NCBI GenBank assembly: GCA_964016885.1 | Contig: OZ024759.1 | Location: forward strand, 25,482,001-25,546,000 | DNA from: Eledone cirrhosa | Lineage: Eukaryota | Direction: 5' to 3' | Length of the DNA: 64,000 nucleotides | Shown here: in pieces, positions 37,650 to 38,220 of the stretch | Numbering within the stretch: position 1 is the first letter of the stretch | Layout: each line of letters opens with the position of its first letter | Notes under the pieces: generated by a model | What the model was told of the DNA's origin: nothing | Databases searched by the model: none | Seen by the model: the letters and a program-made list of their open reading frames with translations, nothing else | Translations under genes and position numbers: made by a program

Positions 37650-38217
37650 AGATAAATCTACCAAGAGTTTACTGTAGTGTCCAATCCGTATGAAGAACTC
37701 AATGTAATCCGGATATCATGGAAAGAAGAGATGCAATGAAAAATCACTTTCGGTGAAAGATAAACGGAAAACAGAGTCAAGATAAAATATTAAAAAAATA
37801 ATGAATAAAACAATGAAGCAGTTCCTTATATTAAACAAAAAAAGGAGTTCATTATTTAACGATCGTTTCTAGGATATATATGTGTTAGAATTGGCATGCA
37901 TATTCAACAGATCTATGTACAAAATTATACAAAATTATACAAACTATCAAAATTAAATATACATACCAAACACATATATATGCCGTCTTCAGAAATAATC
38001 AGATTATTTCTGAAGACGGCATATATATGTGTTTGGTATGTATATTTAATTTTGATAGTTTGTATAATTTTGTATAATTTTGTACATAGATCTGTTGAAT
38101 ATGCATGCCAATTCTAACACATATATATCCTAGAAACGATCGTTAAATAATGAACTCCTTTTTTTGTTTAATATAAGGAACTGCTTCATTGTTTTATTCA
38201 TTATTTTTTTAATATTT

Positions 38218-38220
<3 letters not shown>
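37650..38220. mobile_element. TA-inserted tail plus hairpin with 219-bp arms
   Basis: 37782-38000 is the reverse complement of 38002-38220. The tail recurs at 48820-48910 and 51790-51830. Confidence 0.8.
38003..38151 (+). ncRNA. Hammerhead motif with greatly extended stem/loop II, with a mirror copy at 37851-37999 (-)
   Basis: ATTATTT-CTGAAGA-cGGcATATATATGTGTT(about 80 nt)AACACATATATATCCta-GAAA-CGATCG-TT-AAATAAT. Palindrome AACGATCGTT. Confidence 0.65.

What the first reader, a model, noticed from the sequence alone, without database searches (positions are those of the whole stretch)
37782..38220. 439-bp hairpin holding two mirror hammerheads with an insert of about 80 nt in loop II
Seen: apparently identical 219-bp arms with a 1-nt loop. 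Each arm has CTGAAGA and GAAA about 116 nt apart, brought together by a 13-bp ATATATATGTGTT/AACACATATATAT helix, plus a 7-bp stem I and the palindrome AACGATCGTT. Descriptor searches with short loop limits would miss this. Arm identity suggests a recent insertion.
Basis: partly seen in the sequence, partly recalled or inferred. Interest (0 to 1): 0.7.

Follow-up and report, generated by a model that had tools for sequence, protein, structure and literature searches.

The report
Head-to-head Penelope ends, long-stem hammerhead
This is a 574-base scrap of a Penelope-type jumping gene, pasted in as two head-to-head ends like roughly 950 others in this animal genome; its hammerhead RNA motif has an unusually long 116-base hairpin arm and is predicted to stay mostly uncut, and cutting has not been tested.

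Summary
In detail: identical 219-bp arms, 1-nt spacer, hammerhead cores 116 nt apart. Each arm is the whole terminal repeat (pLTR) of a young Hydra-clade Penelope-like retrotransposon (RT plus GIY-YIG ORF at other loci). About 950 such junctions exist in this genome, and inverted pLTR plus tail is textbook Penelope anatomy.

The insert is not a loop but a long imperfect stem II, 90-149 nt in all 92 family motifs scanned, against about 11-26 nt in published Hydra hammerheads. Only one hammerhead is sense on each strand.

Three points were not found in my searches. Arms stop at the hammerhead's first base, often with an extra G, likely a copied cap. Pairs carry one tail, never two (37 of 38 one, 0 two). 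Few copies begin at the cut site. Likely mechanism: capped, uncut RNA copied from two internal start sites and joined head-to-head; fold-back is the main rival. Cleavage is untested and this locus was not confirmed in reads. The scan noted a similar layout in another genome.

The parts
37647..37781 (-). 135-nt 'tail': element sequence downstream of the pLTR, ending at a small GTAGAT/ATCTAC hairpin; likely the second reverse-transcription start site
   Evidence: Same sequence follows one arm at many loci and ends at +348 to +352 in 90 of 90 tail-bearing arms; loose read ends at 37647. Role inferred from Frangieh 2024.
37782..38000 (-). Left arm: complete pLTR (+1 to +215, plus a private 3-nt insertion and an extra 5' G)
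37851..37999 (-). Type I hammerhead of the left arm (CTGAAGA 37992-37986, GAAA 37869-37866, predicted cut between 37858 and 37857)
   Evidence: mirror of the right arm
38000..38002 (.). Head-to-head joint C-A-G: an extra G on each arm where the element's own upstream base is C, plus one spacer base; likely two copied caps
   Evidence: cap reading inferred
38002..38220 (+). Right arm: complete pLTR ending at +215 straight into (TA)n; likely the first reverse-transcription start site
38003..38151 (+). Type I hammerhead of the right arm: 7-bp stem I, core CUGAAGA/GAAA, C-A mismatch at 10.1-11.1, palindromic helix III CGAUCG, GUU triplet, predicted cut between 38144 and 38145
38017..38132 (+). 116-nt stem II: imperfect hairpin (13-bp basal helix, 12-bp second helix, apical helices)
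   Evidence: fold z -6.9; 98.9% of cells paired in 41 copies
38185..38206 (+). Downstream repeats of the stem I 5' strand, predicted to sequester the cut strand (inactive fold)
   Evidence: minimum-energy folds; prediction only
37576..37646 (.). Left (TA)n/(TG)n target tract; no target-site duplication can be read
38221..38249 (.). Right (TA)n target tract

Best explanation
This is a protein-free minimal insertion of a Hydra-clade Penelope-like retrotransposon, likely made when the element's reverse transcriptase copied a capped, still uncut RNA twice, from two internal start sites onto the two strands of a (TA)n target, and the two copies were joined head-to-head. Shown: each arm is the element's pLTR; one arm ends at +215, the other at about +352; both start at the first base of the hammerhead. 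Inferred: +1 is the transcription start and the extra G is the copied cap; the two 3' ends were joined by end-joining or a template jump. The hammerhead is a type I Penelope motif with a 116-nt hairpin as stem II. It is predicted to be mostly off as a monomer (core strands pair with each other and a downstream repeat captures the cut strand) and would cut weakly, likely as a dimer through the CGAUCG palindrome or with protein help. The mirror copy is antisense, so the palindrome itself is likely a by-product with no ribozyme role; a read-through RNA would be a plain 219-bp double helix.
For: Element identity: arms flank an RT + GIY-YIG-type ORF at other loci with the Hydra motifs; this rests on motifs read by eye, since Pfam gave no family. 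Layout: 950 forward and 939 reverse matches to a head-to-head joint pattern, control 0. One tail per pair: 37 of 38 pairs, none with two; 18 of 19 among loci not picked for a tail. 5' ends: of 90 tail-bearing arms, 31 read on upstream, 24 stop at -5..+8, 4 at +136..+150. G at -1 in 98 of 403 copies not preceded by C, and in 13 of 49 arms against 1 of 49 at -2 (p 0.0008; 9 of 45 after dropping 4 that the partner could template, p 0.006). In 9 of 42 adjacent pairs the tail-less arm reaches more than 10 nt further 5' than the tail arm, and in 3 pairs only the tail arm lacks a 10-nt repeat unit, so there it is not a plain copy of the tail arm. In vitro precedent: both target strands cut and extended, two start sites that define the tail, uncut RNA the main substrate (PMC11167929). 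Stem II kept across subfamilies, with 3 pairs changed on both sides and many G-U/A-U swaps.
Against: Both window arms share a 3-nt insertion found at only these 2 places in the genome, which fold-back explains more simply. Three internal pairs are cut at the same position in both arms (L072, L082, L092). Only 24% of non-C copies carry G, and G is also common at -3 (9 of 49, from the partner's sequence). Central deletions and repeat slippage after insertion could also make arms unequal. No RNA data: no RNA holder was listed, so the start site is not observed. Pair counts come from related copies and are few (11 of 500 shuffles reach 3 pairs). Energy models leave out tertiary contacts, so the 'off' prediction (3-13 kcal/mol) is soft.
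Confidence: 0.6

Rival explanations
1. Same element, but one reverse transcription only: the cDNA started at the tail folds back at its 3' end, is copied as DNA, and is cut or stopped at the AT-rich pLTR end (+215), giving the tail-less second arm.
For: Private 3-nt insertion shared by both arms; 4 private variants shared by both arms in 38 pairs; arms of a pair always from the same subfamily in the 10 pairs aligned with both arms; equal truncation of both arms at 3 internal sites. Arkhipova 2013 reads such palindromes as self-priming, and Craig 2021 ascribes the tail to endonuclease resolution.
Against: 9 of 42 pairs have the tail-less arm longer at its 5' end; 3 pairs have a 10-nt loss on the tail arm only; a 1-nt loop with G on both arms is hard to prime by fold-back; joints show varied fillers and duplications.
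Confidence: 0.3
2. The hammerhead is a dead relic in this family; the long hairpin is kept for another job (promoter, protein binding, RNA protection) or is just a captured microsatellite fold-back.
For: C-A at 10.1-11.1, GUU triplet, all-AU 7-bp stem I, predicted inactive fold; most copies were made from uncut RNA.
Against: CUGAAGA, GAAA and helix III are invariant in the 41 aligned copies while loops vary (these copies were picked for having the core). Stem I has a C-G for U-A change. A mismatched 10.1-11.1 and U at position 17 are common in the published Hydra motifs. 28 copies start exactly at the predicted cut against 11 and 13 at two control positions. This rival concerns ribozyme activity and is independent of how the arms were made.
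Confidence: 0.3
3. The perfect palindrome at this locus is an assembly or library artefact.
For: 100% arm identity; no read or contig laid spans the locus with its flanks.
Against: About 950 like joints with varied centres; the arms differ at their outer ends in the way seen at other loci; contigs of two other public runs (X7, X8) show the inverted partner right before +1.
Confidence: 0.04
4. A domesticated host element, for example a hairpin RNA or ribozyme switch acting on the homeobox gene about 9 kb away.
For: It lies upstream of an NK-type homeobox locus.
Against: One of about 950 like insertions, 98-99% identical to other young copies; no sign of locus-specific conservation was sought or found.
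Confidence: 0.03

Closest known systems
Hydra-clade Penelope-like elements (Craig et al. 2021, PMC8557442; section 11, passages and supplementary files S1/S2 as held in part 2 read; includes Hydra-1_Obim)
   Same: RT then C-terminal endonuclease, RWR (for RWK), DKT, CxCX5C linker, CxxC and CxH, (TA)n targets, type I hammerhead near the 3' end with mismatched 10.1-11.1 and often U17; inverted 5'-truncated copy with a tail at one end.
   Different: Segment between the cores is 90-149 nt against about 11-26 nt in the listed Hydra motifs; tail 135 nt against 30-40; about 3.3 kb of microsatellite-rich sequence between ORF and 3' pLTR in L031, where published Hydra elements are generally under 3 kb in all.
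PAc/Poseidon of Anolis in vitro (Frangieh et al. 2024, PMC11167929; parts 1-2 of 4 read)
   Same: Two internal start sites defining the tail, AT-rich targets, uncut RNA as template, hammerhead not needed for insertion.
   Different: Other clade; hammerhead overlaps the ORF start there; head-to-head joining and cap copying are not addressed in the parts read.
Inverted pLTR and palindrome junctions of Adineta Penelope elements (Arkhipova et al. 2013, PMC3846280; passages read)
   Same: Head-to-head pLTRs, optional tail on one, palindromes at the joint, Inr-like motif in the pLTR.
   Different: Few copies there, read as self-priming on an antisense template; here about 950 joints, with a G at -1 that points to a capped sense RNA.
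Minimal and palindromic-helix-III hammerheads of Penelope-like elements (Cervera and de la Pena 2014, PMC4209133; parts 1-2 of 4 read)
   Same: Type I topology, palindromic helix III, expected dimer activity, low monomer activity.
   Different: Helix II of 6-8 bp there, about 40 bp with bulges here.
Discontinuous Clec2 hammerhead (as described in review PMC6155905; passage read)
   Same: Core halves far apart in sequence.
   Different: Type III, insert of 150-1500 nt in helix I, host 3' UTR; here type I, structured insert in helix II, in a transposon.

Membership tests
Penelope-like element (EN+) | RT and GIY-YIG endonuclease in one ORF between pLTRs | tested here: met
   645-aa open frame in L031 with QFD, GSSDS, RDD, VY..YIG, followed 3.3 kb later by the arm; 461 homologues. 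Pfam gave no family for it, so this rests on motifs read by eye. The window copy itself has no ORF.
Penelope-like element (EN+) | Inverted 5'-truncated copy with a tail at one end | tested here: met
   37 of 38 pairs carry one tail; tail is 135 nt instead of 30-40
Hydra clade | RWK motif, DKT in place of DKG, no GxKF/Y | tested here: met
   RWR and DKTGN in two frames of the frameshifted copy L035; no GxKF/Y in the L031 frame or the L035 N-terminal frame; definition
Hydra clade | CxCX5C linker; CxxC and CxH around conserved E and N | tested here: met
   CNCRNKANC at 505, CRLC at 603, CNH at 631
Hydra clade | (TA)n insertion preference | tested here: met
   window and most loci
Hydra clade | Phylogenetic placement with published Hydra RTs | not tested
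Type I hammerhead ribozyme | CUGANGA and GAAA cores, NUH triplet, A15.1-U16.1 | tested here: met
   CUGAAGA, GAAA, GUU; GUA in the sister subfamily
Type I hammerhead ribozyme | Helices I, II and III can form | tested here: met
   98.9% of 1506 cells paired; 3 pairs changed on both sides; helix III only 2 bp as a monomer, 8 bp as a dimer
Type I hammerhead ribozyme | G10.1-C11.1 pair | tested here: not met
   C-A mismatch; this pair is also absent from many published Hydra motifs, and the C/A form is listed for PLE-X1_cBra, so it is not strictly defining for Penelope hammerheads
Type I hammerhead ribozyme | Self-cleavage at the triplet | not testable with these tools
   indirect only: 28 copies start at the site against 11 and 13 at controls
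Non-LTR retrozyme | Head-to-tail tandem units, each with a sense hammerhead | tested here: not met
   units are head-to-head, one sense motif per strand; definition
MITE / DNA transposon | Symmetric terminal inverted repeats with a fixed target duplication | tested here: not met
   ends are unequal (+215 and +352), the interior varies from about 0 to over 9 kb, and the partner ORF is an RT

The most novel reading that the evidence does not exclude
This Penelope family starts its capped RNA on the first base of a hammerhead whose 100-116-nt stem II and downstream repeat act as a switch: off in the capped 5' copy (7-bp stem I) and more open in read-through copies (9-10-bp stem I). The roughly 950 genomic joints are a direct record that Penelope inverted ends come from a capped sense RNA copied twice from two fixed start sites.
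Probability: 0.3. Interest if true: 0.65.

Novelty: new variant of a known kind. Interest (0 to 1): 0.4.

Why it matters
The layout is known. The variant matters in two modest ways. First, a natural hammerhead with a conserved stem II of about 100-116 nt, in thousands of copies (1253 and 4043 exact marker matches for two subfamilies), lies outside the short stem-II sizes of the published Penelope motifs, so ribozyme counts in such genomes are probably too low. Second, how Penelope elements make head-to-head ends, and from which RNA strand, is described as open in the papers read. The strict one-tail rule, the pile-up of ends at +1 and the extra G make that question testable in one young, abundant family. 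The roughly 950 near-perfect hairpins would also be ready double-stranded RNA substrates if read through (inference, untested).

Tried and rejected
- Rfam scan of the window: the 150 listed of 444 matches were microsatellite-driven miRNA hits below gathering score.
- Pfam found no family for the L031 ORF, P0002 or P0007.
- Metagenome scan for relatives of the ORF: 113 pattern hits, none confirmed, so no outgroup hammerheads were obtained.
- Sequencing runs: no RNA holder listed. Contigs and RAD reads of other samples did not span the locus; one X1 piece crosses the centre with only 28 letters on one side and is not counted.
- An apparent short-insert variant in RAD reads (84-86-nt skips) traced to a single rearranged locus L159 of the sister subfamily, not to a short-stem family.
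- First guess of Naiad or Neptune clade dropped: the endonuclease is C-terminal and the motifs are Hydra's.
- 5' boundary as a splice acceptor rejected: no AG before +1.
- 5' boundary as the ribozyme cut rejected: the cut would be at +143.
- The binomial p for 37 of 38 is not used, because 19 of the 38 loci were picked for having a tail.
- Arms from two different subfamilies were looked for and not found.
- Luense et al. 2017 on dimeric Penelope hammerheads is not held and may list long-stem variants; I saw it only through a review passage.
- bioRxiv supplements were closed, and only part 2 of 56 of the Craig supplement was read.

Full report
1. Observation. The arms 37782-38000 and 38002-38220 are 219 nt, fully complementary and 1 nt apart. 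The right arm reads G, ATTATTT (stem I), CTGAAGA, 116 nt, GAAA, CGATCG, TT, AAATAAT. The 13-bp helix and the 82 nt inside it are as described, but the whole 116 nt fold into one imperfect hairpin (z -6.9, 0 of 200 shuffles). The window is AT-rich animal DNA from a 3.0-Gb assembly. A cephalopod host is my inference from genome size, (TA)n content and the nearest named protein (Argonauta).

2. It is a repeat end. A DNA search gave 761 candidates, 40 scored, the best at 97-99% identity. The first 29 nt occur exactly 1253 times, the pLTR-tail junction 1506 times and a sister-subfamily marker 4043 times; controls were 0. Arms either stop at +215 into (TA)n or run on to about +352. In the window the right arm stops at +215 and the left arm runs on to 37647. 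[quoted passage not shown] It has RWR, DKT (in the frameshifted copy L035), CxCX5C, CxxC and CxH, which Craig et al. 2021 give for the Hydra clade, together with (TA)n targets (section 11). Pfam did not recognise it and no tree was built. An inverted copy with a tail at one end is the usual Penelope layout (passages).

3. The palindrome is common. A head-to-head joint pattern at the hammerhead's first bases matches 950 times forward and 939 reverse (a locus can match twice, and related subfamilies are included). The same CAG/CTG centre recurs at two other listed places on C1. Among 181 near-complete arms in my loci, 38 formed pairs: 37 had exactly one tail, 1 none, 0 two; among the 19 loci not picked for a tail, 18 had one. 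Fourteen of the 38 have identical arms. Contigs of runs X7 and X8 show the inverted partner right before +1, so the class exists outside this assembly. This locus itself was not spanned by any record.

4. Where the arms start. I classed 90 of the first 100 listed tail junctions (all on C1, of 1506): 31 read on more than 30 nt upstream, 7 stop at -30..-6, 24 at -5..+8, 10 at 9-40, 9 at 41-135, 4 at 136-150 and 5 later. The element's own base at -1 is C, in TTTC/ATT, an initiator-like context (recalled consensus BBCABW). Of the 1253 exact copies, 850 have C, 98 G and 305 A or T. In 49 arms that stop near the start, G is at -1 in 13, at -2 in 1 and at -3 in 9; the -3 cases come from the partner's sequence. 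Dropping 4 cases that the partner could template leaves 9 of 45 (p 0.006 against -2). An untemplated 5' G is ascribed to cap copying for L1 and SVA (PMC3287187, passages). So +1 is likely the transcription start and the template was capped and uncut. This is inference; no RNA run was available.

5. The hammerhead. In a scan of my loci and the window, all 92 distinct family motifs had 90-149 nt between the cores, while 24 motifs of other families had 12-53 nt (filter: stem I of 5 bp or more and a folding insert). In the sister subfamily, 26 of 30 loci had a core with 90-133 nt and 4 lacked it. The published Hydra motifs have about 11-26 nt (file S2). I aligned 41 copies, picked by hand mostly from 85 distinct ones, leaving out near-duplicates and large indels. 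98.9% of cells pair, 3 pairs change on both sides (11 of 500 shuffles reach this), and subfamily differences in helices are mostly G-U/A-U swaps. The copies are related, so this is support, not proof. The C-A at 10.1-11.1 and U17 are unusual for classic hammerheads but occur in the published Penelope list. Folding puts the hammerhead form 13.2 and 10.0 kcal/mol above the best fold for the window arms, 5.9 with the upstream context (10-bp stem I), and 7.2 and 3.4 in the sister subfamily. In the best fold the core strands pair with each other, and in the right-arm and sister-subfamily folds a downstream repeat takes the cut strand. Copies starting exactly at the predicted cut number 48. By my reading 12 are explained by stem I microhomology, 6 by substitutions and 2 by local duplications, leaving 28, against 11 and 13 unfiltered at two control positions (p 0.002-0.006 with rough weights). 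That is a weak hint of some cleavage, far rarer than ends at +1. It fits the low monomer activity and dimer model of Cervera 2014 (review passage) and the finding that uncut RNA is the main substrate (Frangieh 2024).

6. How the pair arose. Frangieh et al. show both target strands cut and extended and two start sites that bound the tail. Two cDNAs, from +352 and +215, meeting at their 3' ends would give exactly this layout, with G on both arms. For it: in 9 of 42 adjacent pairs the tail-less arm reaches over 10 nt further 5' (counted by eye), 3 pairs lack a 10-nt unit on the tail arm only, and the centres are varied. Against it: the window's 3-nt insertion is on both arms and nowhere else in the genome; 4 private variants are shared between arms against 50 on one arm; 3 internal pairs break at the same base; and later deletions could explain unequal arms. 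I put two copies at 0.6 and fold-back with a cut at 0.3. On either path each strand has one sense hammerhead, and a read-through RNA would be a 219-bp helix, so the mirror pair is likely no functional unit.

7. Novelty. Seven searches found the layout and the short Penelope hammerheads, but no Penelope hammerhead with a stem II near 100 nt and no report of a cap G at Penelope joints. Luense 2017 was not held and most of the Craig supplement was not read, so either point may be in print.

8. Verdict. A real but mostly ordinary Penelope by-product, with a variant ribozyme and a useful mechanistic record. New variant of a known kind; interest 0.4.

Noticed in passing
L012, L016, L033, L163, L167, L168, L169, L176 (at +1 of the pLTR): A SINE-like repeat sits right at the first base of the hammerhead, in 5 of 30 sister-subfamily loci, with varied lengths and duplications of up to about 17 nt. 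Its 3' end matches ATTATT (also at window 56244-56427 and 56622-56805), so a sequence-guided hot spot is likely.
   Followed up: partly
window 32836-32875 (+), 39236-39300 (+), 50994-51060 (+), 38680-38760 (-): Four further type I hammerhead motifs of other repeat families, with 12-33 nt between the cores. In the loci fetched, other families reach 53 nt, so stem II length forms a series in this genome.
   Followed up: partly
window 34784-34920 and 4446-4571: Two more near-perfect palindromes beside (TA)n with GAAA/CTGA-type motifs, probably head-to-head ends of other Penelope-like families.
   Followed up: no
window 37255-37340: Short repeat-like piece after (TA)n with CTCAGAA...GTCGAAACGAC, resembling the 4446-4571 family.
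   Followed up: no
window 8415-9098 (+): Intronless cyclophilin ORF with a signal-peptide-like start, beside a palindrome and (TA)n (Pfam Pro_isomerase 7e-42); possibly a retrocopy.
   Followed up: partly
window 18785-19447 (-) and 28189-28893 (-): NK-type homeobox gene, likely two exons (homeodomain 1.6e-21); the finding lies about 9 kb upstream.
   Followed up: partly
L031 3408-6768: About 3.3 kb of microsatellite-rich sequence between ORF stop and 3' pLTR, shared by other copies; long for the Hydra clade.
   Followed up: no
L038 6355-9525: A 3.2-kb inverted pair of a second Penelope-type element (RVT_1 and GIY-YIG) next to a copy of this family.
   Followed up: no
L044, L069 joints: Repeated short units of the first 13 or so bases at the joint, as if the cDNA end re-primed on the template.
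   Followed up: no
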